Shown here piece by piece: positions 2,893 to 13,909 of a stretch of DNA of 17,311 nucleotides. The stretch is from Oligoflexia bacterium. Its GTDB lineage: Bacteria; Bdellovibrionota; UBA1018; CAIMNF01. How positions within the stretch are numbered: the stretch's first letter is position 1; the number at the start of each line of letters is the position of its first letter. The stretch covers positions 1-17,311 of the forward strand of contig CAIMWN010000287.1 in the NCBI GenBank assembly GCA_903845155.1. Direction: 5' to 3'. The notes under the pieces were generated by a model. The model worked only from the letters and a program-made list of their open reading frames with translations. It did not search any database and was not told the origin of the DNA. A program made the translations under genes and the position numbers.

Positions 2893-3612
2893 ATGAAGAA
2901 CTGTATCATCGTTTTCTTATTGATTGCCTCAATACATACCGCTTATGCAGATGATTCTGCGGCCACGCTTAAAAATGAATCGGAAGCAGGAGTAGTGGTC
3001 ACCGGCGGAAACACGCAAACCGATACCATTTCACTGAAGGAAAAAACGGCGTACGAATGGAATAAGAATATTGTAAAGTTTGGTGCAAACTTCTTAACAA
3101 CTTCCAATGCCGGAAATCAACAGGCCTACCAGTGGGGCCTTGGCCTTCGTTATGAACGCGAGTTATCAGATCAAATTGGTATCTTCCTTGGTCAAGCCGT
3201 GGAAAGTAATAAGTATCAAGGTATCCTTCAGCGCTACAATTCAGACTTAGGTGGCAGATATACTTTTGTAAAAACAGAACAGTTTAAGTGGGCCTCGGAG
3301 TTAGGTTATCGTTTTACTCGTGAGAATTACACCTTGGATGGCTTCAAAAATATAAACTTTTTGCGACTTTATAACGAGCTGGAGAGAATGTTTACGAAAA
3401 CATTTACGATCAAGTGGTGGATTGAGTTTCTACCTAATATTACCACTTCTGAGGCCTATCAGCTCAACACAGAGCTTTCGGGTAGTGCTGCTATATCAGA
3501 AATGTTTTCGATGAAGGCGGGTTATTTGATTAAGTACAACAATCAACCACCTGTTGGGGCTATTTACAAAACAGATTCCATGTTTACCACTGCCCTCGTC
3601 GCTAAGTTCTAG
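2893..3612 (+). CDS. DUF481-family (YdiY-like) outer membrane protein
   Basis: Signal peptide MKNCIIVFLLIASIHTAYA. The remainder is typical of DUF481 beta-barrels: AGVVVTGGNTQTDTISLKEKTAYEW, LGLRYERELSDQIG, LGYRFTRENYT, and a terminal Phe (TTALVAKF). Confidence 0.8.
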   Translation: MKNCIIVFLLIASIHTAYADDSAATLKNESEAGVVVTGGNTQTDTISLKEKTAYEWNKNIVKFGANFLTTSNAGNQQAYQWGLGLRYERELSDQIGIFLGQAVESNKYQGILQRYNSDLGGRYTFVKTEQFKWASELGYRFTRENYTLDGFKNINFLRLYNELERMFTKTFTIKWWIEFLPNITTSEAYQLNTELSGSAAISEMFSMKAGYLIKYNNQPPVGAIYKTDSMFTTALVAKF

Positions 3613-4583
3613 AAACAATGCCCTAAACTCACTAAGCCATTGGTTCCATCAAGTCCCTCATAATTCGCGGTCCCGCATCCGGTGAATACGAGCGTCTCTG
3701 TCGTTCCATTCATTTTTGCCCCTAGTGTGCTCGGGGTTACTCCACTGATTGTTGAAAAAGTGGTCGTAATGGTACCAGAGGTTGGAGTACAGCACCCAGC
3801 CTTGAATGCAACATTAGTGAAGCTAGATGATGCTTTGAGATGTGCCAAATTATGAAATGTGATGACCGTTCCCGAAGTAATTGTATTACCGTTTGAAATC
3901 ACGAGAGGCGATCCACCTGCATTAGTGGTCACTGTGTGTCTGAATCGGGTACTATTTAAATTTAATCCAGCGATCGCAATCTGTGTCCTGAGGCCTCCTG
4001 AAAAACTCACCGTTGTTCCTCCGCTATACACATTTCCATCTGCAGCCGTGGCGGCGCCGGTGGTATCAATGATTACGCCTACACCTGCTGCTGATGTACG
4101 CGAAGTGCCTAAGGAAAAAGTTCGAGTAACACTAGACATGGCACTCGGGAATGCGCTTCCACAAACGGGAGTCGCGCCCGTAAATGCCACAAACTGTGTT
4201 CCGTTCCAAACGGCAGCTGAAGATGAATAACTACAATTCGAATAAGTGAGGGTTGCAGTGTTTGCAGATACAGAGCAGTTAGCAACGGTACCACTCGCAA
4301 TCGTCGGACACGTAGTTCCGGCTTCTGCGTTTTTAAGCGGCAAAAATGCATCTAAGAATGAGCACATTTTTGATTCAGATTTCTGATCGATCCAAAAGTT
4401 TGCCAATGTGCCACCTGAGGAGCCATTAGCTGCACCACCCACTGCTGCGGCAACGGTCCCCGAAGTAGATGCATCATCCGTAGATGCTGCGGTCGTGGCT
4501 TTGCCACAAGCAGATGTGAATCCAATGAGGATGGTTAAAGATAGAAAAGATAGAATAGTCTGAAAATTCGTAATAAAATACAT
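3609..4583 (-). CDS. Hypothetical exported protein or lipoprotein, Ser/Thr/Gly-rich with several Cys
   Basis: The N-terminus MYFITNFQTILSFLSLTILIGFTSACG is signal-like with a weak lipobox (TSAC). An AGAGG Shine-Dalgarno sequence lies 5 nt upstream of the ATG at 4583. The ORF track starts at a GTG at 4589 that abuts this Shine-Dalgarno sequence. No family recognised. Confidence 0.65.
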   Translation of the reverse strand: MYFITNFQTILSFLSLTILIGFTSACGKATTAASTDDASTSGTVAAAVGGAANGSSGGTLANFWIDQKSESKMCSFLDAFLPLKNAEAGTTCPTIASGTVANCSVSANTATLTYSNCSYSSSAAVWNGTQFVAFTGATPVCGSAFPSAMSSVTRTFSLGTSRTSAAGVGVIIDTTGAATAADGNVYSGGTTVSFSGGLRTQIAIAGLNLNSTRFRHTVTTNAGGSPLVISNGNTITSGTVITFHNLAHLKASSSFTNVAFKAGCCTPTSGTITTTFSTISGVTPSTLGAKMNGTTETLVFTGCGTANYEGLDGTNGLVSLGHCF

Positions 4584-4695
4584 GCGCACCTCTCATTCTA
4601 GAATACCTATTTAGAAAGAAGTGGGCAATAGATCAAAGTTGCCGAGTAAGTGTGCGAATACTCAATGGTACTTCAAATACAACACATTTAGTTCA

Positions 4696-5559
4696 TTAAA
4701 GATCTGGTGCGACATCGGGGGTAACTGCCGCAGGCGCTGGAACCGCTTTAGTAGCGGAGGCTGGTGCTCTACTTGGATCCTCAGTTGGTACAGCTTCTGC
4801 GGTTGCAGGCGCTGTGACTGGAGTGGTTACAGCTGGGTCCTGTGTGGTTTCAGGATTCTGCGTAATATTACTATTGAGGGGATTTACTTGTCCGGAGCCC
4901 GCGATCGTAGGCGCAAGCGAAATTCCGTATTTTGAAAAAACAGAAGTAGTGGTGACTTGGCCGTTCGTTTTTTGAACTTGAACCCATGGTTCTAAATCTG
5001 AACGCGAATTCTGAACAAAATTGAGGGTACTATCAGGCGTTGGATTCACCTTTTTGAAAAACACCCATTCAGATATTTTTGAATAATAGAGTGCTGCCCA
5101 ACGGAGGTATCTTGAATCTTTATAAACATCAACGTAGGCATTCGCGATGGGGCCCAAAAATCCAAAAGTATCCAAAACCTTTTTCTGACGAGTATTCCAG
5201 GTGGTGTCTCCTTGAATGGTGTCTTGTAGTTTTGAAATTTTAGCATAAAAACACCAGTGCATGCGCTCTGGGTCTTGAGTCACTAACTCTACTGCGCCTT
5301 TTCTAATGTCATCTTTCGATGTGGTGAGTTGACTAAGTTTCTTAAACTCATCGTCACAAGTATCGCCGAATTCCCCAAGCACACCCTTGGGCGCTAAAGG
5401 GCTGAAAAAAATGGCTTTGAGGTCAGCTAGTTCAAATCCCGCTGGATGTGGCACTTTTACATACTCGGGCACCTCAGGCAGCGGAATCTTTTCAGATACC
5501 GTTACTGTGCTTGAGCACCCTGCCAAAAGCATCAAACTAAAAATGCCGTATAGTCTCAT
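4696..5559 (-). CDS. Hypothetical lipoprotein with a C-terminal Pro/Ala/Thr-rich tail
   Basis: MRLYGIFSLMLLAGCSS is a classic lipoprotein signal with an LAGC lipobox. A GAGG Shine-Dalgarno sequence precedes the ATG at 5559. The track's extra 49 N-terminal residues are unlikely to be real. The tail is VTTPVTAPATAEAVPTEDPSRAPASATKAVPAPAAVTPDVAPDL. Confidence 0.75.
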   Translation of the reverse strand: MRLYGIFSLMLLAGCSSTVTVSEKIPLPEVPEYVKVPHPAGFELADLKAIFFSPLAPKGVLGEFGDTCDDEFKKLSQLTTSKDDIRKGAVELVTQDPERMHWCFYAKISKLQDTIQGDTTWNTRQKKVLDTFGFLGPIANAYVDVYKDSRYLRWAALYYSKISEWVFFKKVNPTPDSTLNFVQNSRSDLEPWVQVQKTNGQVTTTSVFSKYGISLAPTIAGSGQVNPLNSNITQNPETTQDPAVTTPVTAPATAEAVPTEDPSRAPASATKAVPAPAAVTPDVAPDL

Positions 5560-5692
5560 AAAATTGATCCTCGCCATTATCCTTATCGTCAAAATATTGA
5601 ATAACGTTAATTTTTTGTCGGATCTTTTTACTAAGTTAATAAGTTTCAAGGATTTAGCCAGTGTGTCCGAAAGGCTCTTTGTGAAGAACTCT

Positions 5693-6829
5693 ATGAAGAC
5701 AATCAATAGTAGCAGTACAAAGTTGGCAGGCGCAGTATTGTTGTTATTTTTAAGCTCAATTCCTAGTGTTTTTGCACAAAAAACGCAAGGTGAGGAGCAG
5801 CCACCTACCCCCAGTTCCAGTGCAAGTGGTGCAAGAAACTTCTATCAAGTGCTGGATGAAGTCCTTTCTGATTTTGAATACGATCTGAAAGCAGGCCAAG
5901 TGATTGGGCTAAAAGATCTCTCTATCAGAAATGTCGTCATGAGTGAAAATATCCCTCCTTCATTTAAATCACATCTAGAACTTTTGGTCTCCGAGCGCAT
6001 TTTAAAAACGACTAAAACGAGAATTGTACACTGTCTCGCCTGTAAGTCTAAAAAGGCAACACTCAATGGAGACAATATGGTGATTTCATCACCAGAATCA
6101 AATTCTTCCGAGCTCCAAAGAATTGCCAAAATGAATGGCATTCAAAACTTTATGGATATCGCTTTCGCCTATCAACCCACGGGCGTGCTTTTATCTTTTA
6201 CCATCTCAGATACAGAAACAGGCACCATGCTTTGGTCTCACAGTTATAATTCTGAGGGCACCCGCGCAGCAGCCCAGCGCCGTGGAGTTGATTTTCAAGA
6301 GCTAGAAGAAGCTAAGGCAAAAATGGAATATCAACCCACCATTCAAATGAAGCCAACGCTCTATACGGTGTTCGCTCCTAAAGCTAACTCTGGTTATGCA
6401 ACGGCTCTTGGATTCGGATTTAGAATGATGGAACGATATGACAATAGGAAAAAAGAAGTTGGATTTGAAATGAATTACTACAAGGACATTCCGTCACTGG
6501 TCGGAGAACCCGGTGCCTCTGCTGATAAAAATAATATTTATACTGGGTTAAACCTCACTTTCCTGTTTATGCATGGATGGGGCTTGTTTGGGGCAGAAGA
6601 GAATTACAATAAAGCGCGTGGAGTTGTTTATGGCGGTATCGGTGGCACGTACGCTTCAGGCTTTCTGGGTGGCCTCATTCGTGGTGCCTATGAGTGGCGC
6701 TTGGCGAAACATTGGGCGGTAACCACCTTTCTTGGTTATCGACCTCAGGCTACTTTGGTTATTTCTTCATCATCAACTGCACCCCTTACGGGTGTAGAAG
6801 GAGGACTCGGTGTTGGATTCCTATTCTAA
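5693..6829 (+). CDS. Exported protein with probable C-terminal outer-membrane beta-barrel; first gene of the motor-like cluster
   Basis: The start at 5693 gives signal peptide MKTINSSSTKLAGAVLLLFLSSIPSVFA. The N-terminal domain contains SERILKTTKTRIVHCLACKS and SFTISDTETGTMLWSHSY, which loosely resembles CsgG/FlgO-type domains. The C-terminal half has alternating aromatic/glycine segments and ends in GVGFLF. The track start at 5387 would overlap the divergent lipoprotein gene and lacks a signal peptide. Confidence 0.75.
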   Translation: MKTINSSSTKLAGAVLLLFLSSIPSVFAQKTQGEEQPPTPSSSASGARNFYQVLDEVLSDFEYDLKAGQVIGLKDLSIRNVVMSENIPPSFKSHLELLVSERILKTTKTRIVHCLACKSKKATLNGDNMVISSPESNSSELQRIAKMNGIQNFMDIAFAYQPTGVLLSFTISDTETGTMLWSHSYNSEGTRAAAQRRGVDFQELEEAKAKMEYQPTIQMKPTLYTVFAPKANSGYATALGFGFRMMERYDNRKKEVGFEMNYYKDIPSLVGEPGASADKNNIYTGLNLTFLFMHGWGLFGAEENYNKARGVVYGGIGGTYASGFLGGLIRGAYEWRLAKHWAVTTFLGYRPQATLVISSSSTAPLTGVEGGLGVGFLF

Positions 6830-7532
6830 ATTTTATAGCGCTCTCATTGCATTGCTGATCGTATCAGCATGTTCAACCGCACAAAGTGTGCAGGAAAAAG
6901 AACAATCACGTATTGAAAATCCCTTTGGAAACTACAATCAAGAAACCAACGACCCAAGTCGCAATATTACTTTTAGAAGTAAAAAAGGTGATCAGGCATT
7001 GGAACTCGAGTTCCCCGAAAAAGGCAACTCCGACATGGTGATTCCGATGAATTCAAAATATCAAAACAACGAACGCACCTCTATCGCTGGAACGGACGAA
7101 GTAGATTATCAATACAAAGACCGCAAGCCTAGCATGGCTGACCGTGAAATTGCCTCCACATTTGGTGGTTCGAAAAATCTTGAAGATGAGTCCAAAAGGC
7201 ATGAGATTGAACAAAATTTAGGATTACAGCCAAGCGACGAAGCTCCCAATATGGATGAAAGCTATCTTGCAAAACTCGACGTAGTAAAACAACTTTTTAG
7301 AACGAAACGTTATGAAGCAGCCATGATTGAGATAGACCAATTGGTTAAGTCTTATCCGACCAATAGCCGTCTCTACGAAATGCGGGGAACACTTTTAGAT
7401 CGCATGGGTTATCAAGACCTTGCGTTACGCTCGTGGAAACAAGCGATAGAGCTTGATCCAACGCGAGTGACATTAAAGAAGACTATCGAAAAACGTGAGC
7501 AACAAAGAAGTGTTGCGTCTGAGAGGAAGTAA
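6810..7532 (+). CDS. Lipoprotein with C-terminal TPR-like repeats
   Basis: Lipobox in SALIALLIVSACSTAQ. TPR-like segment VKQLFRTKRYEAAMIEIDQLVKSYPTNSRLYEMRGTLLDRMGYQDLALRSWKQAIELDPT. A perfect AAGGAGG at 6798-6804 precedes the GTG at 6810 (or the TTG at 6813), inside the end of the upstream gene. Confidence 0.8.
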   Translation: MLDSYSKFYSALIALLIVSACSTAQSVQEKEQSRIENPFGNYNQETNDPSRNITFRSKKGDQALELEFPEKGNSDMVIPMNSKYQNNERTSIAGTDEVDYQYKDRKPSMADREIASTFGGSKNLEDESKRHEIEQNLGLQPSDEAPNMDESYLAKLDVVKQLFRTKRYEAAMIEIDQLVKSYPTNSRLYEMRGTLLDRMGYQDLALRSWKQAIELDPTRVTLKKTIEKREQQRSVASERK

Positions 7533-9911
7533 ATGATGAAAACCATAATTGCAATTATAGGAATGATGCAAGTAGTGGCCTTTGCCGGACCCTCAACGCT
7601 CGACGTGAAGAAACGGGGTGAGCAAGAAATCAAGCAAATTGTTCAACCGATCCTCACTCAGTACTGTCATGAACAATGCGAAATCATTGGTGCGAGCACT
7701 GAAGTGGATGTTGCCGTTCAAGACGAAGCTACTCCCGGTTTTGAAGACAATGTAGGAAAGGCAACCTTGACTCCGGTTTCAGGTAAAGTGCAAATCCTCG
7801 TGGACAAATTTCTATCAGATACCAAAAGAAAACAAGTAACCGATCTCATCGCTGAACACTTAAAGCAACTCGACTATAGAGTTGAAATTGAAAGCACGAT
7901 TAAGGAATTTCCTCAGCCTGCGGCTTCCGGATATCGCGTAGCTGAACTCCGTGAAAAGGTGACCAGAGACATCAAGGCATCTATGCAAAGTCTGATCAAT
8001 CAATTTTGTGCAGATTCATGTATTTTAGGACAGTTTGATGTGCAAACTGAAGTAGTGAATGCCGATGAAGTCAATTACGGTTCAAGCCAGGATTATTTTC
8101 AAGATGGTCCAGCAGCGATTCGGGTCCGAAATGTGAAGGCGACCGTGATGGTGGATCAATCTCTTCCAAAAGAAGAAGCAGCCGGAATTGTGGAGATGGC
8201 GAAAGTTAAATTAAGCCAATACAAAAATGCCCAGGTGACGAGTGAAGTGATGAATTTTCCGAAAACTTCAAGCATGCTCGCAAAAAATGGAATTTACGGC
8301 AATGGCCGCTATCCAGCGGGCGTTGACGGAAAAAATAGTGAAACCAGTGAATCTAAAGATTCAAAATTAGACGCTAAGAGTGACTCAAAATATGATTCTA
8401 AAACTGATTCGAAGTACGATGCCAAAACTGATTCAAAATACCAATCGTTAACAGACGCTAAAGAACAAACTACGCGCTCTGATGCTCGTTCTGAATCCTT
8501 GAAAAAGAATGAAACGAATAGCAATAGCAATAGCAATAATAATACTGAAAATAAATCTGAGAAATTTGAACGCTTTGAGAAAATTGAGCGCGTTGAAAAT
8601 GGAGATGCCGTTCAACAAGTGCTTGAAAAATTCCGCGTATACGGAATTATTCTTTCTGCGATCATGCTTGCTTTATTATTTAGTTTAGTTGCCATATCAT
8701 TTCGAAGAAACAATTGGGGTGGCGCGAAGGCAACTGATCAGGCGCATTCGCCAAAAGCTGAACAGGGTTCAAAAGGCGCGCCAAGTGCCGAGTCTGGTGT
8801 TCTTACTAGTGACGAGAAATCGGCGCTCATCGGAAAGAGGATTGAAGCCGATCGTCTCTTTAATGACCTTACTCAAATTTTTTCCGAACAGCCTAAAGTT
8901 GCGAAATATGTATTCACTCATGTTTTGACCGAAGAAGGCGTAGAGACTGCCGCCCAGTATTTGGAGATTTTTGGTGAAACCGTAATTATGGATCTGCTTC
9001 GCGATCCCGGTCTTCAGTCTGACTTGTCAGAACTGATGGATTTTTACGCTAAAAATACTTTTGATATTAATGATGATGAGACGTTAATGCTATTGAAGAA
9101 GCTCCATCATCGAACCGTCACCGCCAAAATGCAAGTTCATGGCAGCCGCTCCGCCGTGTTGTTCGATTTCTTGGCAGATATGGATACTCCACAGATTTTT
9201 GAAATGATCAAAAATGAATCGAATACAGTGAAGGCCATTGTCCTCACTCAGTGTGATCAGAAGAAACGTCAGGCTATTTTTGCATCTTATGATGACCATA
9301 ATCGTCTGAAACTGATGACCGAACTTTCTCGCATTGATCATTTACCAAAAAATTATATTTTCAACGTGGCCTCAGCGCTTCGTCGTAAGAAAGCTGAGAA
9401 TCCAAAACTCAATACTGAAGCGCTTCCGGGCACCGATGTGTTGGTCAGTTTCCTTGAAAAGGCGAGTGTGGATACCCAACGCACCATCATTCATCAACTC
9501 ATGTCTTCGGCTGGGGGCGATGTGCTCAATAACTTGAAAGCGAAGCTCGCCAGTGTGGAGACCTTGAGATTTGTGAAGGACGCCCAACTGACTGAAGTAA
9601 TTACCCATGTAAAACATGATGAACTTCTTCAGTTTCTACAGGGCTGTAGTAAGGATGTGCGAGAATCGGTGCTGTCTAAAGCACCGCAAGATCTTGCAGC
9701 TGATCTGAGTGATGGTCTGCAACTTTCTGAGCCGGTCAATCGTGATACCTACATCGCCGTTGAACGTAAGATCATCAATAGAATTAAGGTCCTTGCGAAC
9801 CAAGGGCAGATCAGTCTTACAGAAGTGAATGAACGGATGTTTGCAGAAGAGTTTGGATTTAATCATTCAAACCCTGACGTAACTGAAGTTGGATACGGGA
9901 AGGTAGGTTAA
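7533..9911 (+). CDS. Membrane-anchored FliG-like protein with an exported N-terminal duplicated domain that is possibly FliF-like
   Basis: Signal peptide MMKTIIAIIGMMQVVAFAG, two similar exported domains (CHEQC and CADSC copies), a DSK-rich linker, and one TM helix (VYGIILSAIMLALLFSLVAISF followed by RRN). The C-terminal region aligns with FliG: IFEMIKNESNTVKAIVLTQCDQKKRQAIF matches the middle domain and VITHVKHDELLQFLQGCSKDVRESVLSKAPQDLAADLSDGLQLSEPVNRDTYIAVERKIINRIKVLANQGQI matches the C-terminal domain. A GAGGAAG Shine-Dalgarno sequence precedes the ATG. Confidence 0.85.
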   Translation: MMKTIIAIIGMMQVVAFAGPSTLDVKKRGEQEIKQIVQPILTQYCHEQCEIIGASTEVDVAVQDEATPGFEDNVGKATLTPVSGKVQILVDKFLSDTKRKQVTDLIAEHLKQLDYRVEIESTIKEFPQPAASGYRVAELREKVTRDIKASMQSLINQFCADSCILGQFDVQTEVVNADEVNYGSSQDYFQDGPAAIRVRNVKATVMVDQSLPKEEAAGIVEMAKVKLSQYKNAQVTSEVMNFPKTSSMLAKNGIYGNGRYPAGVDGKNSETSESKDSKLDAKSDSKYDSKTDSKYDAKTDSKYQSLTDAKEQTTRSDARSESLKKNETNSNSNSNNNTENKSEKFERFEKIERVENGDAVQQVLEKFRVYGIILSAIMLALLFSLVAISFRRNNWGGAKATDQAHSPKAEQGSKGAPSAESGVLTSDEKSALIGKRIEADRLFNDLTQIFSEQPKVAKYVFTHVLTEEGVETAAQYLEIFGETVIMDLLRDPGLQSDLSELMDFYAKNTFDINDDETLMLLKKLHHRTVTAKMQVHGSRSAVLFDFLADMDTPQIFEMIKNESNTVKAIVLTQCDQKKRQAIFASYDDHNRLKLMTELSRIDHLPKNYIFNVASALRRKKAENPKLNTEALPGTDVLVSFLEKASVDTQRTIIHQLMSSAGGDVLNNLKAKLASVETLRFVKDAQLTEVITHVKHDELLQFLQGCSKDVRESVLSKAPQDLAADLSDGLQLSEPVNRDTYIAVERKIINRIKVLANQGQISLTEVNERMFAEEFGFNHSNPDVTEVGYGKVG
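8355..8450 (+). repeat. Four imperfect 24-nt in-frame tandem units encoding an (x-D-S-K-x-D-x-K)-type linker
   Basis: Units at 8355-8378 KDSKLDAK, 8379-8402 SDSKYDSK, 8403-8426 TDSKYDAK and 8427-8450 TDSKYQSL, followed by the partial TDAK. Confidence 0.85.
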
Positions 9912-9915
9912 TACT

Positions 9916-10701
9916 ATGAATATTTCATCATTAGTGGGCATTTTTATTGGCATGGCAGTAGTAGGGGCCTCCTTATCTGAGACGGGGATGGATGTTAAAT
10001 TCTTCCTGAACTTTCACGGTTTGGTCATTGTTTGCGGAGGAACGCTGGCGGCAGCGGCCATTAGCTTTCCGCTATCGAAGATTTTTATGCTCGCAAAAGT
10101 ATTTTTCCTGCGACTCGTAGGTAAAAATAAAGTGGATTATCAGGGAACGATTGAGCAAATGTTGGAGTTGAATAAGAAACTTTCATTGGGTTTGGTCGGT
10201 TCACATGAAGCCATTGCGGGAATTAACAATGAATTTTTAAAAGAAGCTGTGACTTTGGTAGCAGATGGAGTGTTGAGTGAAAAAGAGATTAGATGTGTTC
10301 TAGACCAGAGACTGAGAACGATTGAACATCATTATATGCATGAAGCAAATATGTTTAAGGTGATTGGGAAGTATCCGCCTGCATTTGGACTATTAGCAAC
10401 TACACTTGGAATGATCGCACTTCTTCAAAAAATTGGCCAACCCGGTGCCGAAAAACTGATTGGTCCAGCGATGGCAATTGGACTTGTGGGTACTCTCTAC
10501 GGGATTGGTCTTGCCAATTTGCTTTTTTTACCGATATCGGAAGCTCTTGTTGAAAAAACAGAAGAGGAAATTACACTTCGCAAAATGATTATTGAAGGTT
10601 CAGTCCTCTTGAAGCAAAGAGTGAGCCCCGTTTATATGCGTGAGAGCTTAAATTCATTTCTTCTTCCCCGTGATCGCGTGGTTCGTAGAAAGGCAGCGTA
10701 A
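9916..10701 (+). CDS. motA: MotA-like stator / proton channel subunit
   Basis: FLNFHGLVIVCGGTLAAAAISFP, NNEFLKEAVTLVADG, YPPAFGLLATTLGMIALLQKIGQPGAEKLIGPAMAIGLVGTLYGIGLANLLFLPISEAL. This matches the MotA/TolQ/ExbB family with conserved TM prolines. The symbol denotes family, not proven flagellar function. Confidence 0.92.
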   Translation: MNISSLVGIFIGMAVVGASLSETGMDVKFFLNFHGLVIVCGGTLAAAAISFPLSKIFMLAKVFFLRLVGKNKVDYQGTIEQMLELNKKLSLGLVGSHEAIAGINNEFLKEAVTLVADGVLSEKEIRCVLDQRLRTIEHHYMHEANMFKVIGKYPPAFGLLATTLGMIALLQKIGQPGAEKLIGPAMAIGLVGTLYGIGLANLLFLPISEALVEKTEEEITLRKMIIEGSVLLKQRVSPVYMRESLNSFLLPRDRVVRRKAA

Positions 10702-10707
10702 TTTTTT

Positions 10708-11556
10708 ATGGCAGTCATACGTAAGCTTGATCCAAATACTGAAGAGTCAAATGAAGGGCCACCGCCGCCCAAGAAATATGATCGCTTTAATCAAGGCCAC
10801 GACGATTCAAATTGGTTAATTAGTTATGCTGATATGATGACCCTGCTTTGCGTTTTTTACATCATGATGTTCAGTATGGCGAAAATGAATACTGCAGAAT
10901 TTGAAAAGGTGAAGAAAGAGGTCGCACAAAACTTGGGAACCAAGTATGAGTCACCTACCGAGAATCTCGGTAAATATGTCACCAATATTTTAACTGAAAC
11001 GGGTGTAGCAAAAGACGCGACCATGGTGAGCGACGGTGTGAGTGTGAGTATCGCGTTTCACTCGACCCTCTTTTTTGATACAATGAGTGCCGAGATTTCA
11101 CCGCAAGGCCGAGAGATTCTAGAAAAAGTCATTGCTGGGCTGGATGAACATCAAAAGCTAAATAAGAAACATTATAAGATAGTGGTAGAAGGGCATACCG
11201 ATAGCCAAGCGATTGTAGGTGGGCCGTTTCCATCCAATTGGGAATTATCGAGTTCGCGTGCGACTCGTGTGATTAGGTTGTTTTTGGATCGTGGATTTCA
11301 GGCTTCCAATCTTCTGGCGATTGGTTATGCCGATACGCAGCCCGTGGCCGACAGTAGGAATCCTGACGGTACATGGAATGCTGAGAACTTAGGTAAAAAT
11401 AGGCGTGTGGTATTAAGAGTGATGCTCCCTGATGTGGATTCGATACCTTGGAAAGTAGCCCCGTCGGGAGTCAAGAATACTGCTACAACAGCAACTCCAG
11501 TCACGGTGGTTGCGCCCGTTTCTGTTGCCCCGGCCCCTGCGGCTCCGGTCAAATAG
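10708..11556 (+). CDS. motB: MotB-like stator subunit with OmpA-like peptidoglycan-binding domain
   Basis: Channel motif NWLISYADMMTLLCVFYIMMFSMAKMN, with the Asp codon at 10831-10833. OmpA/MotB domain IVVEGHTDSQAIVGGPFPSNWELSSSRATRVIRLFLDRGFQASNLLAIGYADTQPV. Confidence 0.95.
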   Translation: MAVIRKLDPNTEESNEGPPPPKKYDRFNQGHDDSNWLISYADMMTLLCVFYIMMFSMAKMNTAEFEKVKKEVAQNLGTKYESPTENLGKYVTNILTETGVAKDATMVSDGVSVSIAFHSTLFFDTMSAEISPQGREILEKVIAGLDEHQKLNKKHYKIVVEGHTDSQAIVGGPFPSNWELSSSRATRVIRLFLDRGFQASNLLAIGYADTQPVADSRNPDGTWNAENLGKNRRVVLRVMLPDVDSIPWKVAPSGVKNTATTATPVTVVAPVSVAPAPAAPVK

Positions 11557-11689: not shown

Positions 11690-11845
11690 ATGTCTACTCC
11701 AAAGGTTAAAACCATACGTACCAGTTCGATCGAGGTGATTGCACTTATCGCATCCCTGTTTTTTCTCGTGGCCGGCATGACTTTGATTTCGAATGGAAAA
11801 AAGATTTATGCAAATCAGCTCAAATTATCCGAGCGAATTAGATAA
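11690..11845 (+). CDS. Small single-TM protein (hypothetical)
   Basis: MSTPKVKTIRTSSIEVIALIASLFFLVAGMTLISNGKKIYANQLKLSERIR contains one hydrophobic helix. The ATG at 11690 lies downstream of a GGGAG-like sequence. The track's in-frame start at 11615 adds a less likely N-terminus. Confidence 0.45.
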   Translation: MSTPKVKTIRTSSIEVIALIASLFFLVAGMTLISNGKKIYANQLKLSERIR

Positions 11846-11851
11846 AAAGTG

Positions 11852-11896
11852 CAAAAAAAACCCCAGTCTCGAATGTTGATACACAAGACTGGGGTT
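11852..11896 (-). terminator. Rho-independent terminator on the minus strand, downstream of tRNA-Asn
   Basis: An 11-bp perfect inverted repeat, AACCCCAGTCT (11859-11869) and AGACTGGGGTT (11886-11896), with a 16-nt loop. On the minus strand it is followed by a T tract (the + strand has gcaaaaaaaacccc). Confidence 0.85.
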
Positions 11897-11970: not shown

Positions 11971-12045
11971 TGGCTCAGGAGGAGGGATTCGAACCCCCGA
12001 CCAATCGGTTAACAGCCGATTGCTCTACCACTGAGCTACTCCTGA
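11971..12045 (-). tRNA. tRNA-Asn (anticodon GTT), CCA encoded
   Basis: The minus strand reads TCAGGAG TA GCTC AGTGGTA GAGC A ATCGG CTGTTAA CCGAT TGGTC GGGGG TTCGAAT CCCTC CTCCTGA G CCA. It is a complete cloverleaf with anticodon GTT. Confidence 0.96.
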
Positions 12046-12097
12046 ATAGTAATATTTTAAGTAACCAAAAATCGATTCGTTGTCTATACTAAATTTA

Positions 12098-13909
12098 ATG
12101 CACCACAGACGCAATACTCTTCTTATAAATTTACTTTTTTTATTTATATTCGTGGAGAGTCCCATTTTCATTACGCCAGTTCATGCAAAACCTGAGAACT
12201 TAAGCGCACTGCTCCAGAGATGGACGCCACCCGAAGTGAAGAAATCCGTAAAAAAATCACCTAAAAAGAAGGCGGCTCAAGTCGCTTTAGGGGTAGAGGC
12301 CCTTCCTCTGGAGTACTGGATATACTTTGAAGCGAAGGCTGCTTTAGAAAAGAAGTTAGATCTTAAATCAATTGAATCGCTTGAGAAAAGAATTTTAGAA
12401 GTTCGCTTGAATGCAGATACACGTGCGCTCGAAAAGGAATTTGATGAGCTTTTTTATGCGCTCGAAATTAAGCGTGCGGAGAGGCAGGTCAGGCTAAAAT
12501 CGTGGCGCCTAGCCACTCGCTCTTTTACTCACGCCATGAATGCGCTTCATACCTTTAAGTGGATTTATTATTGGAGAGCTGAAACTTCCGATGCTCTGGT
12601 TGCACTCTGCACGCGAAAAGCTAAGGTGAAAGACGATGCCTGTCCGGTCCTTGCAAAAAGGGTAGTTGATGCCTTTCCGAAAAGCGCAACGGAAACTAAG
12701 GTACTAAGGGATTTGCCCGCCATTGAAGCATCCCCCCTGGTTGATGTGGCGACGGCCGACCGCCTTTCTCAGCCTTATCCTGAAAAGACCGAACAAGATG
12801 AAGAGGCTTTTGCAGATGTCCTCGATGATTATCTCAATGGGAAAGATCACGAATTGTTTGAGCACGCGAAACTGTTCATGAACGATTTTCCAAAATCAAT
12901 CTTACGCTTTAGGGCGTTGTTCTTAATGGCCGAGTTTGATTTCAAGTTCAATAGAAAAAAAGACGCCAAAGAAAAATACGATCAAATTATTAGCCAAATC
13001 CCGCTCAGTTATTATGCAGTAGTGGCAGCAGAGCGCAACGGCGTTCAACTCAGGGACCAAGTGAAGAAGGATATGATCAAAGTAGATCTCGATCAACTAA
13101 ACCTTCAGTACCCTGAAAAACAGGCTTTAGTTCGGGCTGAAAGTCTTTATGTGAAGAAACATTATGAAGAAGTCGCATTGGAGCTTGAAACCTTAACGAG
13201 AGTGCGCGCCTACAATCTCGACACCATTTTATATGTGATGGGTCTTGCTCATCAATCCAATCAAGACCTGACTGCATTTAGAATTGCGAACGAATTGATT
13301 CAGCGGAAGTATGATGGTTTACTTGCGAATGAATTCTTGGAAATGATTTTTCCGGATCGGTATTCTGAAGACATTGAACTTTATTCAAAATTAAATAAAA
13401 TCGATCCGCTTTGGGTTATGTCTTTGATGAAGCAAGAGTCGGGTTTTAAGGCACCCATCCTCTCTTCCTCTGGTGCGATGGGACTCATGCAATTGATGCC
13501 TTTTACCGCGCTCGACGTTCAAAAAGATGTGCTCCTTTCATCATTAAAGCAACCATCCAATAATATTTCGATTGGCACTAAATACATTGCTTCGCTTGCG
13601 GAGAAATACAATGGCAACATGGTCTTCGCGCTTGCAGCCTATAATGCAGGCCCAAATCGCGTTGCAAAATGGAAGAAAGACGCGAAACCAAATTGGGGAA
13701 TGACCGAGTTTATAGAATCCATTCCGTATAAGGAAACTCGTGACTATGTGATGTCGATCTTCAGAAATCATTATTGGTATCAGTATCGAAAGGGTCAATC
13801 AGCACAAAGCGTCTTTGATCCCAATTTCGATTTAAAAAGACCAATCGATACCAAAACCGATTCTAAAACTGATGCCAGAGTAGATGTGAAGCTCGAAGCG
13901 AAGAAATAG
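12098..13909 (+). CDS. Soluble lytic murein transglycosylase (SLT domain) with helical N-terminal region
   Basis: A hydrophobic signal follows MHHRRNTLL. SLT motifs: DPLWVMSLMKQESGFKAPILSSSGAMGLMQLMPFTA, with the predicted catalytic Glu codon at 13436-13438, plus NISIGTKYIASLAEKYNGNMVFALAAYNAGPNRVAKW and FIESIPYKETRDYV. The track start at 12080 is a TTG. Confidence 0.9.
   Translation: MHHRRNTLLINLLFLFIFVESPIFITPVHAKPENLSALLQRWTPPEVKKSVKKSPKKKAAQVALGVEALPLEYWIYFEAKAALEKKLDLKSIESLEKRILEVRLNADTRALEKEFDELFYALEIKRAERQVRLKSWRLATRSFTHAMNALHTFKWIYYWRAETSDALVALCTRKAKVKDDACPVLAKRVVDAFPKSATETKVLRDLPAIEASPLVDVATADRLSQPYPEKTEQDEEAFADVLDDYLNGKDHELFEHAKLFMNDFPKSILRFRALFLMAEFDFKFNRKKDAKEKYDQIISQIPLSYYAVVAAERNGVQLRDQVKKDMIKVDLDQLNLQYPEKQALVRAESLYVKKHYEEVALELETLTRVRAYNLDTILYVMGLAHQSNQDLTAFRIANELIQRKYDGLLANEFLEMIFPDRYSEDIELYSKLNKIDPLWVMSLMKQESGFKAPILSSSGAMGLMQLMPFTALDVQKDVLLSSLKQPSNNISIGTKYIASLAEKYNGNMVFALAAYNAGPNRVAKWKKDAKPNWGMTEFIESIPYKETRDYVMSIFRNHYWYQYRKGQSAQSVFDPNFDLKRPIDTKTDSKTDARVDVKLEAKK
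13844..13903 (+). repeat. C-terminal tetrapeptide-like repeats in the transglycosylase (12-nt period)
   Basis: The tail reads IDTK TDSK TDAR VDVK LEAK, five imperfect x-D/E-x-K/R units. Confidence 0.6.

What the first reader, a model, noticed from the sequence alone, without database searches (positions are those of the whole stretch)
5693..11556. Compact five-gene locus for a candidate trans-envelope motor with its own stator and fused rotor
Five + strand genes are packed with a 20-nt overlap, then gaps of 0, 4 and 6 nt. They encode an exported probable OM beta-barrel, a TPR lipoprotein, an exported-domain/TM/FliG-like protein, MotA-like and MotB-like. The set covers outer membrane, periplasm, peptidoglycan, inner membrane and cytoplasm. 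No fliF, fliM, fliN or other flagellar genes are in the window. It could be a non-flagellar rotary or linear motor (for gliding, envelope remodelling or predation) or a flagellar accessory motor. As far as I can tell the architecture is not a standard described system.
Basis: partly seen in the sequence, partly recalled or inferred. Interest (0 to 1): 0.88.

Follow-up and report, generated by a model that had tools for sequence, protein, structure and literature searches.

The report
Stand-alone flagellar-type rotor–stator gene cluster
Uncultured relatives of Bdellovibrio carry a conserved operon with one protein that joins a flagellar membrane-ring-like part to a torque-ring (FliG-like) part, its own MotA/MotB ion-driven stator and outer-membrane partners, but no export apparatus, rod or switch proteins; I found no paper describing it, and what it drives is unknown.

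Summary
Five tightly packed + strand genes lie at 5693-11556, with junctions of -20, 0, 4 and 6 nt. They encode an outer-membrane barrel with a TolB-N/LpoB-like periplasmic domain, a TPR lipoprotein, a 792-aa fusion protein (G3), MotA and MotB.

G3 has a signal peptide, two ring-building-motif-like domains whose best fold matches are FliF, a disordered linker, one TM helix and a full-length FliG-like domain.

The same five genes are collinear in all 77 related Bdellovibrionota loci wherever the contig is long enough. A very distant branch keeps the same genes in a different order. The G3 periplasmic module occurs in only 86 protein clusters out of 1.84 billion, always in this architecture. Every source name I retrieved was from a MAG.

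The FliM-binding EHPQR motif is lost. The torque helix stays acidic, but the canonical FliG R281-MotA E98 charge pair is remodelled on both partners.

A sigma-28 (FliA)-type promoter precedes the operon in 54 of 62 loci, the same motif found before flagellin genes in these loci.

Most likely this is an export-free flagellar-type rotor-stator module expressed with the motile or attack-phase regulon. Whether it acts alone or at the flagellum is unresolved, and its output is unknown. No paper describing it was found.

The parts
4696..5577 (-). g0: divergently transcribed lipoprotein (lipobox LLAGC), no known domain. The true start may be the ATG at 5559, which is preceded by GAGGA.
   Evidence: ORF. 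No Pfam, NCBIfam or PDB match. An ortholog sits at the same place and orientation in 58 related loci.
5646..5672 (+). Sigma-28 (FliA)-type promoter TCAAG-N16-CCGAAA, ending 20 nt before the g1 start codon.
   Evidence: Sequence. The motif is exact in 21 of 62 loci and has at most 1 mismatch in 54 of 62, against 0.6% and 4.4% of random 300-nt windows. It is a phylogenetic footprint in the close clade. The same motif precedes 17 of 51 flagellin genes in these loci. It matches the B. bacteriovorus attack-phase FliA consensus TTAAG-N16-CCGATA (PMC3627812).
5693..6829 (+). g1: exported outer-membrane protein. It has a signal peptide, a TolB-N/LpoB-like periplasmic domain (residues ~50-186) and a C-terminal small beta-barrel (residues ~216-378) ending ...GFLF.
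   Evidence: AF2 pLDDT 76.7. Foldseek: TolB 1e-6, LpoB 4e-4, OmpA TM domain 1e-4, OmpW, OmpX. The family is 52-83% identical among the 120 best hits and none has a Pfam domain.
6810..7532 (+). g2: lipoprotein (lipobox VSAC) with C-terminal TPR repeats (residues ~150-226).
   Evidence: TPR_2 2.8e-5, below Pfam's cut-off (24.3 vs 27 bits). TPR-protein matches in the PDB. An ortholog is present in 69 loci, usually overlapping the G3 start by 4 nt.
7533..9911 (+). G3: 792-aa FliF-like/FliG-like fusion protein, the candidate rotor.
7596..8252 (+). G3 periplasmic module: two alpha-beta-beta-alpha-beta (ring-building-motif-like) domains at residues 22-124 and 130-240. Each has an invariant CxxxC.
   Evidence: Secondary structure. 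Foldseek to the FliF MS-ring: 7bk0_B 5e-5, 6scn_A 6e-4, 6sd1 and others. Invariant C45/C49 and C159/C163. phmmer of this module finds only 86 clusters in 1.84e9, always N-terminal; the complete proteins are about 720-990 aa.
8268..8561 (+). G3 disordered, low-complexity (S/N/T/K/D-rich) periplasmic linker.
   Evidence: pLDDT below 50 for residues 246-343. Length is 28-94 aa (median 68) and 40% S+N+T across 71 family members.
8559..8714 (+). G3 invariant juxtamembrane motif (E..ERFEKIERVENGDAVQ) continuing into the single TM helix.
   Evidence: Invariant columns E349-D358. Continuous helix 341-394 in the model.
8808..9854 (+). G3 cytoplasmic FliG-like region with N, M and C domains (residues 426-774).
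   Evidence: Foldseek to full-length FliG: 8wo5, 8umx and 3hjl at 2e-8 to 6e-8 over about 320 columns. Profile against PDB FliG at 7e-13. Pfam FliG_M and FliG_C. TIGR00207 scores 62 bits against a cut-off of 226.7.
9916..10701 (+). MotA-like stator A subunit of the flagellar (PomA/MotP-like) type.
   Evidence: NCBIfam MotA/MotP/PomA at 1e-40 to 1e-35, below the equivalog cut-offs. Full-length alignment to PDB MotA/PomA. The E. coli P173 and P222 equivalents are conserved in 63 of 63 family members.
10708..11556 (+). MotB-like stator B subunit: TM helix with the channel Asp (YADMMT), plug, and OmpA-like peptidoglycan-binding domain.
   Evidence: MotB_plug and OmpA. The best PDB matches are flagellar MotB/MotS/PomB. 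Sequence.
11690..11845 (+). Small single-TM ORF (51 aa counted from MSTPKV). It may be a sixth gene of the operon in this clade.
   Evidence: ORF. A homolog lies directly after motB in L001-L004, L006, L008, L009 and L055.
11971..12045 (-). tRNA-Asn on the opposite strand, preceded by a 10-bp hairpin at 11860-11895. This marks the end of the unit and separates it from the SLT gene at 12080-13909.
   Evidence: ARAGORN and Rfam. Sequence.

Best explanation
The locus is a sigma-28-driven operon, plus one divergent lipoprotein gene, that encodes a self-contained rotor-stator module derived from the flagellar motor. It has none of the parts that make a flagellum: no export gate, rod, hook, FliM/FliN switch or filament genes.

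Shown by analysis:
- G3 is a single-pass membrane protein. Its exported half has two FliF-like ring-building-motif folds. Its cytoplasmic half is a complete FliG-like N-M-C domain.
- The adjacent MotA and MotB are flagellar-type. They keep the channel Asp, the two conserved prolines, the plug and the peptidoglycan-binding domain.
- The partners g1 (outer-membrane barrel with a TolB-N/LpoB-like domain) and g2 (TPR lipoprotein) travel with these genes across the main clade and a distant branch.

Inferred mechanism:
- G3 assembles into a ring in the inner membrane.
- MotA5B2 units are anchored to peptidoglycan by MotB and are powered by ion flow. They turn and push on the acidic torque helix of the G3 FliG_C domain, so the G3 ring rotates.
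- Because the FliM-binding EHPQR site is replaced by a different invariant motif, there is no CheY/FliM switch.
- In most relatives, though not in this window, a 165-170 aa cyclic-nucleotide-binding protein is translationally coupled to G3. It probably regulates the ring.
- The periplasmic ring, tethered by a flexible linker, docks to the TPR lipoprotein and the periplasmic domain of the barrel. This couples inner-membrane movement to the outer membrane.
- The module is expressed with the motile or attack-phase regulon.

The output is not known. Candidates are movement or remodelling of outer-membrane or surface components, surface motility and prey contact.
For: Architecture and folds.

Tight packing, with no convincing terminator inside the unit: the simple scan found two weak + strand hairpin candidates within coding sequence, and total sites were no more than in shuffled sequence.

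Gene linkage:
- The five genes are collinear in 77 loci.
- The same five genes appear in the order g1-g2-motA-motB-G3 at 21-30% identity in L078 and around P0317.
- The periplasmic module is found only in this architecture: 86 clusters in 1.84e9, and 10 of 10 distant members tested have FliG_M and FliG_C.

Rotor-stator interface:
- FliG K264 is kept (K in 57 of 65).
- D288 and D289 stay acidic (65 of 65 and 61 of 65).
- R281 becomes D/E (64 of 65).
- Its usual partner in MotA (PomA E96, E. coli E98) becomes N/K/Q/S.
- A KK pair is conserved in MotA (62 of 63).
Both sides of one canonical charge pair have therefore changed together.

FliM site: EHPQR becomes E-S-x-T...E, with R160 changed to E in 65 of 65.

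The cNMP-binding gene overlaps the G3 stop in 57 of 77 loci and stays with G3 even where motAB is not adjacent (L081).

No flagellar structural gene other than flagellin occurs in any flank examined.

FliA-type promoter.
Against: - No experiment or multimer model shows that G3 forms a ring or that anything rotates.
- The 28-94 aa disordered linker between the periplasmic module and the TM helix is a poor drive shaft.
- The MotA R90 equivalent and the FliG R281 and R297 residues are not conserved, so the interface differs from the canonical one.
- The FliA promoter, the nearby flagellins and a flagellated carrier fit a flagellum-associated role equally well.
- In three deep-branching lineages G3 has no adjacent motAB, g1 or g2.
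- I could not check whether carrier genomes also hold canonical fliF, fliG, fliM and fliN.
Confidence: 0.5

Rival explanations
1. Flagellar accessory. G3, g1, g2 and g0 form an extra ring or scaffold around the conventional, thick and probably sheathed polar flagellar motor of these Bdellovibrionota. The adjacent MotAB is one of the flagellar stator sets, and G3 positions, recruits or engages those stators from the membrane side.
For: - A FliA-type promoter identical in form to that of flagellin genes in the same loci.
- Flagellin genes 3-7 kb upstream in 28 loci.
- The carrier FG-1 has one thick polar flagellum (PMC13200544).
- MotA and MotB are of the flagellar type.
- From my own knowledge, not tested here: high-torque motors in other phyla use TPR proteins and lipoproteins (PflA/PflB, FlgP, FlgT) as stator scaffolds.
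Against: - The flagellins are separated from the locus by housekeeping genes (MeaB, an M48 peptidase) and mostly lie on the opposite strand.
- No fliL, fliM, fliN, flhA or rod genes occur in any flank.
- G3 carries its own ring-building and torque domains, which no known scaffold protein does.
- No member was found in a cultured flagellated Bdellovibrio-like organism. All 77 genome hits are MAGs or FG-1, and every source name retrieved for the roughly 30 further clusters looked up is from a MAG.
- In B. bacteriovorus, FliA controls two-thirds of attack-phase promoters, including non-flagellar genes (PMC3627812). The promoter therefore does not imply a flagellar part.
Confidence: 0.25
2. Non-rotary energy transducer, analogous to Tol-Pal or ExbBD-TonB. 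MotAB uses ion flow to drive conformational work in G3 monomers or small oligomers. The long flexible periplasmic arm of G3 reaches the TPR lipoprotein and the barrel to pull on or remodel the outer membrane or peptidoglycan.
For: - A long disordered periplasmic linker.
- An outer-membrane partner with a TolB-N/LpoB-like domain.
- A peptidoglycan-binding MotB.
- The canonical rotor-stator charge pairs are only partly kept.
Against: - The MotA is flagellar-type. NCBIfam lists only MotA/MotP/PomA families, and no TolQ or ExbB family appears.
- G3 keeps all three FliG domains, whose known role is ring formation and torque reception.
- The two RBM-like folds are ring-building modules.
Confidence: 0.12
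3. G3 is the flagellar MS-ring and FliG of these lineages. It would be a natural FliF-FliG fusion that replaced the separate genes.
For: - Engineered FliF-FliG fusions assemble rings (PDB 8z4d; PMC11481574).
- JGI annotates family members as FliG.
- Carriers encode flagellins.
Against: - Only two RBM-like domains, a cleavable-looking signal peptide in place of TM1, and no Pfam or NCBIfam FliF match.
- The FliM-binding motif is lost.
- TIGR00207 scores 62 bits against a cut-off of 226.7.
- The gene is never next to fliE, fliH, fliI or export-gate genes.
- A disordered linker would have to carry the rod.
Confidence: 0.06
4. Anti-phage Zorya-like system built on a MotAB-like ion channel.
For: MotB matches the ZorB models of PADLOC (1e-21).
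Against: - There is no ZorA match for MotA, and it has no long ZorA tail (261 aa).
- There is no ZorC or ZorD, and no PADLOC hit for g0, g1, g2 or G3.
- The ZorB hits reflect general MotB homology.
- The locus sits among housekeeping genes, and where the contig and strain set allow comparison it occupies the same position.
Confidence: 0.01

Closest known systems
Bacterial flagellar rotor-stator core (FliF MS-ring, FliG, MotA5B2/PomA5B2)
   Same: - FliG-like N-M-C fold and FliF-like ring-building folds.
- Flagellar-type MotA with the conserved prolines.
- MotB with channel Asp, plug and OmpA-like domain.
- An acidic torque helix and K264.
- A sigma-28-type promoter, as for many motAB operons.
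   Different: - The rotor parts are fused in one polypeptide.
- Two RBM-like domains instead of three, with no FliF sequence signature.
- A signal peptide instead of TM1.
- A long disordered periplasmic linker.
- The EHPQR (FliM) site is lost, and the R281/E98 charge pair is remodelled.
- No export gate, rod, hook, FliM/FliN or FliL genes in the unit.
- Fixed outer-membrane barrel and TPR-lipoprotein partners.
Chlamydiaceae FliF-FliG fusion protein (Bergeron 2016, PeerJ, PMC4768692)
   Same: It is a natural fusion of a shortened FliF (two RBM-like regions) to FliG-like sequence, in an organism without a complete flagellar gene set at that locus.
   Different: - The chlamydial protein is about 330 aa, keeps both FliF TM helices and carries only a FliG_M-like region.
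- It has no adjacent motAB and is thought to work with the injectisome.
- G3 is 720-990 aa, has full N-M-C FliG with a torque helix, and is linked to motAB and outer-membrane partners.
Engineered FliF-FliG fusions of Salmonella and Vibrio (PDB 8z4d/8z4g; PMC11481574, PMC6079021)
   Same: They show that a covalent MS-ring-FliG fusion can assemble into rings, so the G3 design is mechanically plausible.
   Different: They are laboratory constructs of full-length FliF and FliG within a complete flagellar system.
Other 5:2 ion-driven motors with trans-envelope outputs (TolQR-TolA-TolB-Pal, ExbBD-TonB, AglRQS-Glt gliding complex, GldLM of the type 9 secretion system, ZorAB)
   Same: The logic is shared: an inner-membrane ion-driven unit is encoded together with periplasmic, TPR or lipoprotein and outer-membrane partners. 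The g1 periplasmic domain has the TolB N-terminal fold.
   Different: - Those systems use TolQ/ExbB-type or unrelated A subunits and have no FliG-like partner.
- Here the A subunit is flagellar-type and its partner is a FliG domain.
Periplasmic scaffolds of high-torque flagellar motors (PflA/PflB, FlgP, FlgO, FlgT, MotX/MotY). Comparison from my own knowledge, not tested here.
   Same: TPR proteins, lipoproteins and outer-membrane proteins are encoded with, or act with, stators.
   Different: - None of them contains FliG or ring-building FliF-like domains.
- No sequence match to them was obtained for g0, g1 or g2.

Membership tests
FliG (flagellar motor switch protein, TIGR00207 equivalog) | Scores above the curated equivalog cut-off | tested here: not met
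   62 bits against a cut-off of 226.7. The Pfam FliG_M and FliG_C domain models do pass their own cut-offs.
FliG (flagellar motor switch protein, TIGR00207 equivalog) | Three-domain N-M-C armadillo-like fold | tested here: met
   Foldseek aligns about 320 columns to full-length FliG (8wo5, 8umx, 3hjl) at E 2e-8 to 6e-8.
FliG (flagellar motor switch protein, TIGR00207 equivalog) | EHPQR motif of FliG_M that binds FliM | tested here: not met
   E125 is kept in 65 of 65. H126 becomes S in 64 of 65, Q128 becomes T in 64 of 65, and R160 becomes E in 65 of 65.
FliG (flagellar motor switch protein, TIGR00207 equivalog) | Charged torque-helix residues K264, R281, D288, D289, R297 (E. coli numbering) | tested here: inconclusive
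   K264, D288 and D289 are conserved in charge. R281 is reversed to D/E and R297 is lost.
FliG (flagellar motor switch protein, TIGR00207 equivalog) | Soluble protein bound non-covalently to the FliF C-terminus | tested here: not met
   It is covalently joined to a TM helix and an exported domain.
FliF (MS-ring protein) | Sequence match to the YscJ/FliF family models | tested here: not met
   No Pfam or NCBIfam FliF hit. No FliF hit by profile against PDB sequences apart from the FliG half of a fusion construct.
FliF (MS-ring protein) | Ring-building-motif (alpha-beta-beta-alpha-beta) folds in the periplasmic region | tested here: met
   Two such units in the AF2 model. The best periplasmic fold matches are FliF rings (7bk0_B at 5e-5, 6scn_A at 6e-4).
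FliF (MS-ring protein) | Three RBMs with a beta-collar, flanked by two TM helices | tested here: not met
   Only two RBM-like units. The N-terminus looks like a cleavable signal peptide (AFA-G). There is one TM helix.
FliF (MS-ring protein) | Forms a ring of about 33-34 subunits that houses the export gate | not testable with these tools
   No multimer prediction was available. No export-gate genes occur in any flank.
Flagellar stator MotA/MotB (PomA/PomB, MotP/MotS) | Full-length similarity to flagellar A and B subunits rather than TolQR/ExbBD | tested here: met
   PDB MotA/PomA at 4e-32 to 2e-24 over residues 1-257. The best MotB matches are MotB, MotS and PomB. The NCBIfam list for MotA holds only MotA/MotP/PomA families.
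Flagellar stator MotA/MotB (PomA/PomB, MotP/MotS) | Channel residues: MotB TM aspartate, MotA P173 and P222 | tested here: met
   YADMMT in MotB. Both prolines are conserved in 63 of 63.
Flagellar stator MotA/MotB (PomA/PomB, MotP/MotS) | Plug and OmpA-like peptidoglycan-binding domain in the B subunit | tested here: met
   PF13677 at 2e-14 and PF00691 at 9e-16.
Flagellar stator MotA/MotB (PomA/PomB, MotP/MotS) | Cytoplasmic charged residues that contact FliG (E. coli R90/E98; PomA R88/K89/E96/E97) | tested here: inconclusive
   PomA R88/K89 become S/A plus a hydrophobic residue. E96 becomes N/K/Q/S. E97 stays E/D in 60 of 63. A KK pair three residues upstream is kept in 62 of 63.
Flagellar stator MotA/MotB (PomA/PomB, MotP/MotS) | Scores above the NCBIfam equivalog cut-offs | tested here: not met
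   MotA scores 136 bits against 340. MotB scores 132 against 283.
Flagellar stator MotA/MotB (PomA/PomB, MotP/MotS) | Drives rotation of a flagellum | not testable with these tools
   This needs genetics or imaging in a carrier.
Chlamydiaceae-type FliF-FliG fusion | About 330 aa, two TM helices, FliG_M-like region only, no linked stator | tested here: not met
   G3 is 792 aa with one TM helix, FliG N-M-C and adjacent motAB. The description of the chlamydial protein comes from PMC4768692.
Zorya anti-phage system | ZorA with a long cytoplasmic tail, plus ZorC/ZorD or ZorE | tested here: not met
   No PADLOC hit for MotA, g0, g1, g2 or G3. There are only generic ZorB hits for MotB.
Sigma-28 (FliA) regulon | A -35/-10 motif T(C/A/T)AAG-N15-17-CCGA(A/T)A just upstream of the operon | tested here: met
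   Window 5646-5672. At most 1 mismatch in 54 of 62 loci against 4.4% background. The same motif precedes flagellins in these loci. Dependence on FliA itself was not tested.

The most novel reading that the evidence does not exclude
This is a second, flagellum-independent machine built from the flagellar torque-generating pair. A single-polypeptide MS-ring/FliG rotor is turned by its own MotAB, without any type III export apparatus, rod or switch. It is coupled through a flexible periplasmic tether to a TPR lipoprotein and a TolB-N-domain outer-membrane barrel, and it is expressed in the motile or attack phase. It would be the first natural example of FliG-MotA torque used for something other than spinning a flagellum. 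It would also be a minimal living model of a rotor-stator core separated from the export machine.
Probability: 0.35. Interest if true: 0.92.

Novelty: new variant of a known kind. Interest (0 to 1): 0.8.

Why it matters
As far as I know, the only natural partner described for flagellar-type MotAB is the flagellar FliG ring, which sits on an MS-ring built around a type III export gate. Here a conserved gene set keeps the torque-generating pair and a ring-building module. It discards export, rod, hook and switch, and adds dedicated outer-membrane partners.

If the module works on its own, three things follow:
- The flagellar rotor-stator core can be redeployed, as TolQR/ExbBD-type motors have been.
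- It offers a much simpler object for studying how MotA turns FliG.
- It bears on scenarios in which the motor and the export apparatus had separate histories.

If the module instead sits at the flagellum, it would be a new kind of motor accessory carrying a second set of FliG domains. That would also be unprecedented.

Either way, the family (about 86 clusters in 1.84 billion representative proteins; most are annotated as FliG or hypothetical or carry no name) is currently mis-annotated or unannotated. One carrier, the magnetotactic FG-1, has already been imaged by TEM and can be collected magnetically, so it is a practical starting point.

Tried and rejected
- Zorya or another defence system: rejected. 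PADLOC gives only generic ZorB hits.
- The SLT lytic transglycosylase at 12080-13909 as part of the unit: rejected. Its best NCBIfam hit is the Borrelia flagellar-assembly transglycosylase BB0259, at 171 bits against a cut-off of 234. It is separated from the unit by an opposite-strand tRNA-Asn and a hairpin. It is adjacent only in the window's close clade.
- A FliF sequence relationship: not detectable by Pfam, NCBIfam or a profile against PDB sequences. Only the fold matches.
- The N-terminal extension of the 912-986 aa distant members as a third RBM: rejected for L078. It is low-complexity and N-rich.
- The L010 578-aa protein as a divergent G3 paralogue: hhalign was not significant, at probability 0.7%.
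- A sigma-54 promoter upstream of g1: none found.
- Riboswitch or other RNA elements: Rfam finds only the tRNA.
- Search for cultured carriers: three look-ups of cluster names and a profile search of the distant branch returned only metagenomic sequences.
- Whole-genome presence of canonical fliF, fliG, fliM and fliN in carriers: not testable.

Full report
**1. Observation**

The window holds five + strand ORFs:

| Gene | Coordinates | Note |
|---|---|---|
| g1 | 5693-6829 | ORF opens at 5387; the ATG at 5693 begins a signal peptide |
| g2 | 6810-7532 | |
| G3 | 7533-9911 | |
| motA | 9916-10701 | |
| motB | 10708-11556 | |

The rest of the window is housekeeping: leuS, dcd, a DUF481 outer-membrane protein, prs, pth, ychF and an SLT transglycosylase. 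It contains no other flagellar gene.

A simple scan finds no convincing terminator inside the unit. It listed two weak + strand hairpin candidates within coding sequence, and total sites were no more than in shuffled sequence. Downstream of motB there is a small TM ORF at 11690-11845, a 10-bp hairpin at 11860-11895 and a tRNA-Asn on the opposite strand at 11971-12045. Together these close the unit and separate it from the SLT gene.

**2. The proteins**

- **G3 (792 aa), overall.** It scores on Pfam FliG_M (5.7e-9) and FliG_C (4.3e-13). It reaches only 62 bits on the FliG equivalog model, against a cut-off of 226.7.
- **G3, AF2 model.** The model was built from 31 homologues and has pLDDT 73.7. 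Its parts are:
  - a signal peptide
  - two alpha-beta-beta-alpha-beta units (residues 22-124 and 130-240)
  - a disordered stretch (246-343)
  - one long helix that includes the TM segment (341-394)
  - an all-helical cytoplasmic region (426-774)
- **G3, fold matches.** Foldseek aligns the cytoplasmic region to full-length FliG over about 320 columns (8wo5, 8umx, 3hjl; E 2e-8 to 6e-8). It aligns the periplasmic region to FliF MS-ring chains (7bk0_B at 5e-5, 6scn_A at 6e-4, then RBM3/collar entries). No sequence-level FliF signal exists.
- **MotA.** It aligns end to end with solved flagellar MotA/PomA (4e-32 to 2e-24) and hits only MotA/MotP/PomA families in NCBIfam.
- **MotB.** It has the TM aspartate (YADMMT), the plug and an OmpA-like domain, and it best matches flagellar MotB/MotS/PomB.
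- **g1.** It has no Pfam match. Its AF2 model (pLDDT 76.7) has an N-terminal domain like TolB-N (1e-6) and LpoB (4e-4). It also has a small C-terminal barrel like the OmpA TM domain, OmpW and OmpX, ending in F.
- **g2.** It is a lipoprotein with C-terminal TPR repeats; the Pfam TPR hits are below the gathering cut-off (24.3 vs 27 bits).
- **g0.** This upstream divergent gene at 4696-5577 is a lipoprotein with no detectable relatives of known function.

**3. Conservation**

- G3 has more than 145 full-length relatives (740-840 aa). The source names retrieved are Bdellovibrionota MAGs, a few MAGs labelled as other taxa, 'hypothetical', or JGI's 'FliG'.
- A scan of one genome per GTDB species returned 77 loci. 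All are MAGs except the magnetotactic 'Bdellovibrionota bacterium FG-1'.
- tblastn shows g1-g2-G3-motA-motB collinear in every locus long enough to tell. g0 is divergent upstream in 58 loci.
- An exhaustive phmmer search with the G3 periplasmic module alone found just 86 clusters in 1.84 billion representative proteins. The module is always at the N-terminus, and the complete proteins are about 720-990 aa. All 10 distant members tested carry FliG_M and FliG_C.
- In a very distant branch (21-30% identity, including a Silvanigrellales MAG) the same five genes occur in the order g1-g2-motA-motB-G3. A gene set that survives a rearrangement is strong evidence of functional linkage.
- In three other deep lineages G3 stands alone. 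In one it has only a cNMP-binding gene next to it.

**4. Parts the window lacks**

- In 57 of 77 loci a 165-170 aa cyclic-nucleotide-binding protein (PF00027, 62.7 bits) lies between G3 and motA. Its start overlaps the G3 stop.
- In 43 loci a zinc-ribbon/TM/SH3 protein follows motB.
- The window's sub-clade (L001-L009, L028, L055) has lost both. It has the small TM ORF instead.

**5. Rotor-stator and switch residues**

I aligned 65 G3 and 63 MotA family members with reference sequences. The T. maritima, A. aeolicus and C. sporogenes fragments came from the PDB alignments.

| Site | Canonical residue | In this family |
|---|---|---|
| FliM-binding motif | EHPQR | E-S-x-T...E; R160 becomes E in 65 of 65 |
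| Torque helix | K264 | K in 57 of 65 |
| Torque helix | D288 | E/D in 65 of 65 |
| Torque helix | D289 | E in 61 of 65 |
| Torque helix | R281 | D/E in 64 of 65 |
| Torque helix | R297 | lost |
| MotA | P173, P222 | invariant |
| MotA | PomA E96 (E. coli E98), the usual partner of R281 | N/K/Q/S |
| MotA | PomA E97 | E/D in 60 of 63 |
| MotA | PomA R88/K89 | lost; a KK pair three residues upstream is kept in 62 of 63 |

Both members of one canonical charge pair have changed. The torque helix has become uniformly acidic and faces a conserved basic pair. This is what a dedicated, co-adapted rotor-stator pair would look like, but it remains an inference. Loss of the FliM site argues against a CheY-controlled switch complex.

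**6. Regulation**

- The sequence TCAAG-N16-CCGAAA lies at 5646-5672, ending 20 nt before the g1 start codon.
- The motif T(C/A/T)AAG-N15-17-CCGA(A/T)A is exact upstream of g1 in 21 of 62 loci. It has at most one mismatch in 54 of 62. Random 300-nt windows from the same loci give 0.6% and 4.4%.
- In the close clade the two boxes are conserved while the spacer varies.
- The same motif precedes 17 of 51 flagellin genes found in these loci.
- It matches the experimentally mapped FliA consensus of B. bacteriovorus attack-phase promoters, TTAAG-N16-CCGATA. There FliA controls two-thirds of attack-phase promoters, including many non-flagellar genes (PMC3627812).
- The operon therefore probably belongs to the motile or attack-phase regulon. 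This does not tell us whether the product is part of the flagellum.

**7. Relation to the flagellum**

- Flagellin genes lie 3-7 kb upstream in 28 loci. They are mostly on the other strand and are separated from the locus by MeaB and an M48 peptidase.
- FG-1, a carrier, has a single thick polar flagellum (PMC13200544). Carriers therefore do encode flagellar components.
- No other flagellar structural gene occurs in any flank examined.
- No member of the family was found in a cultured Bdellovibrio-like organism.
- I could not inspect whole carrier genomes for canonical fliF, fliG, fliM and fliN. That remains the most important missing check.

**8. Mechanism and rivals**

My best explanation (confidence 0.5) is an export-free rotor-stator module:
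- G3 forms a ring.
- Peptidoglycan-anchored MotA5B2 units turn it through the acidic torque helix.
- There is no FliM/FliN switch.
- A cNMP-binding subunit regulates it in most relatives.
- The tethered periplasmic ring docks to g2 and g1 at the outer membrane.

The weakest link is the 28-94 aa S/N/T-rich disordered linker. It could act only as a compliant coupling, not as a shaft.

The rivals are:

| Rival | Confidence |
|---|---|
| Flagellar accessory ring or scaffold | 0.25 |
| Non-rotary Tol/TonB-like transducer | 0.12 |
| G3 as the lineage's actual flagellar rotor | 0.06 |
| Zorya-type defence system | 0.01 |

**9. Comparison with what is known, and novelty**

- The closest natural analogue is the Chlamydiaceae FliF-FliG fusion (PMC4768692). 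It is about 330 aa, carries only a FliG_M-like region and has no stator.
- Engineered FliF-FliG fusions assemble rings (PDB 8z4d; PMC11481574).
- A phylogenomic survey of MotAB and its non-flagellar homologues places non-flagellar systems such as ExbBD, TolQR and AglRS in a separate 'generic ion transporter' clade from the flagellar stators. I read only extracts of it, and those do not mention a FliG-linked non-flagellar module (PMC12505986).
- Four full-text searches found no description of this family.
- I rate it a new variant of a known kind, meaning a derivative of the flagellar motor, with interest 0.8.

Noticed in passing
L073:12181-12690, L020:12316-12822, L081:12284-12862 and 54 other loci; absent from the window: A 165-170 aa cyclic-nucleotide-binding protein (PF00027) is encoded between G3 and motA. 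Its start overlaps the G3 stop. It stays next to G3 even where motAB is not adjacent. It is a candidate regulatory subunit occupying the place of the lost FliM interaction.
   Followed up: partly
L015:14216-15190 and 42 other loci; absent from the window: A gene for a zinc-ribbon, one TM helix and a C-terminal bacterial SH3 domain directly follows motB in most relatives. The window's clade instead has a 51-aa TM ORF (window 11690-11845), possibly a remnant.
   Followed up: partly
L010:3656-8064: A second gene set with the same logic is inserted between g0 and g1. It consists of a TPR protein (197 aa), MotA (243 aa), MotB (284 aa), a 578-aa protein with a signal peptide, a short periplasmic part, one TM helix and a helical cytoplasmic part, and a 199-aa outer-membrane barrel. 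hhalign of the 578-aa protein against the G3 profile was not significant.
   Followed up: partly
L040:1-2993, L019:2260-4426, L063:249-2273 and 25 other loci: One to three flagellin genes lie 3-7 kb upstream of the locus, separated from it by MeaB and an M48 peptidase. A third of them carry the same FliA-type promoter motif as the operon.
   Followed up: yes
window 5583-5615 (read on the minus strand): A conserved block CTTATCGTCAAAAT.TTGAA.AACGTTAATTT lies in the divergent intergenic region. On the minus strand it reads TTAAC-N16-ACGATA, a degenerate FliA-like promoter for g0. At most 1 mismatch occurs in 14 of 58 loci against 5% background, and at most 2 mismatches in 52 of 58 against 37%. 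If it is real, g0 probably starts at the ATG at 5559 (SD GAGGA) rather than at 5577.
   Followed up: partly
window 7665-7679 and 8007-8021 (G3 residues C45/C49 and C159/C163): Each of the two ring-building-motif-like domains carries an invariant CxxxC at the end of its first helix, in an exported region. This suggests disulfides or metal binding. Nothing comparable is known to me in FliF.
   Followed up: no
window 12080-13909: An SLT lytic transglycosylase with an N-terminal helical-repeat region. Its best NCBIfam hit is the Borrelia flagellar-assembly transglycosylase BB0259 (171 bits, cut-off 234). It is adjacent only in the window's close clade and is separated from the operon by a tRNA gene.
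   Followed up: partly
window 3609-4589 (minus strand) and 2893-3612: A 326-aa S/T/G/A-rich probable lipoprotein (lipobox TSAC) with no family match lies next to a DUF481 outer-membrane protein. This envelope gene pair is unrelated to the locus as far as I could tell.
   Followed up: no
L080:15790-17262: The deep-branching genome in which G3 stands alone encodes a TLC-family ATP/ADP translocase nearby. This hints at an energy-parasitic lifestyle in that lineage.
   Followed up: no
L064 and L066 (FG-1 contigs JBBCAW010000055 and JBBCAW010000062): Two contigs of the FG-1 assembly both end inside G3 at the same position, and their upstream g1/g2 regions differ. This could be two copies or an assembly break at a repeat.
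   Followed up: no
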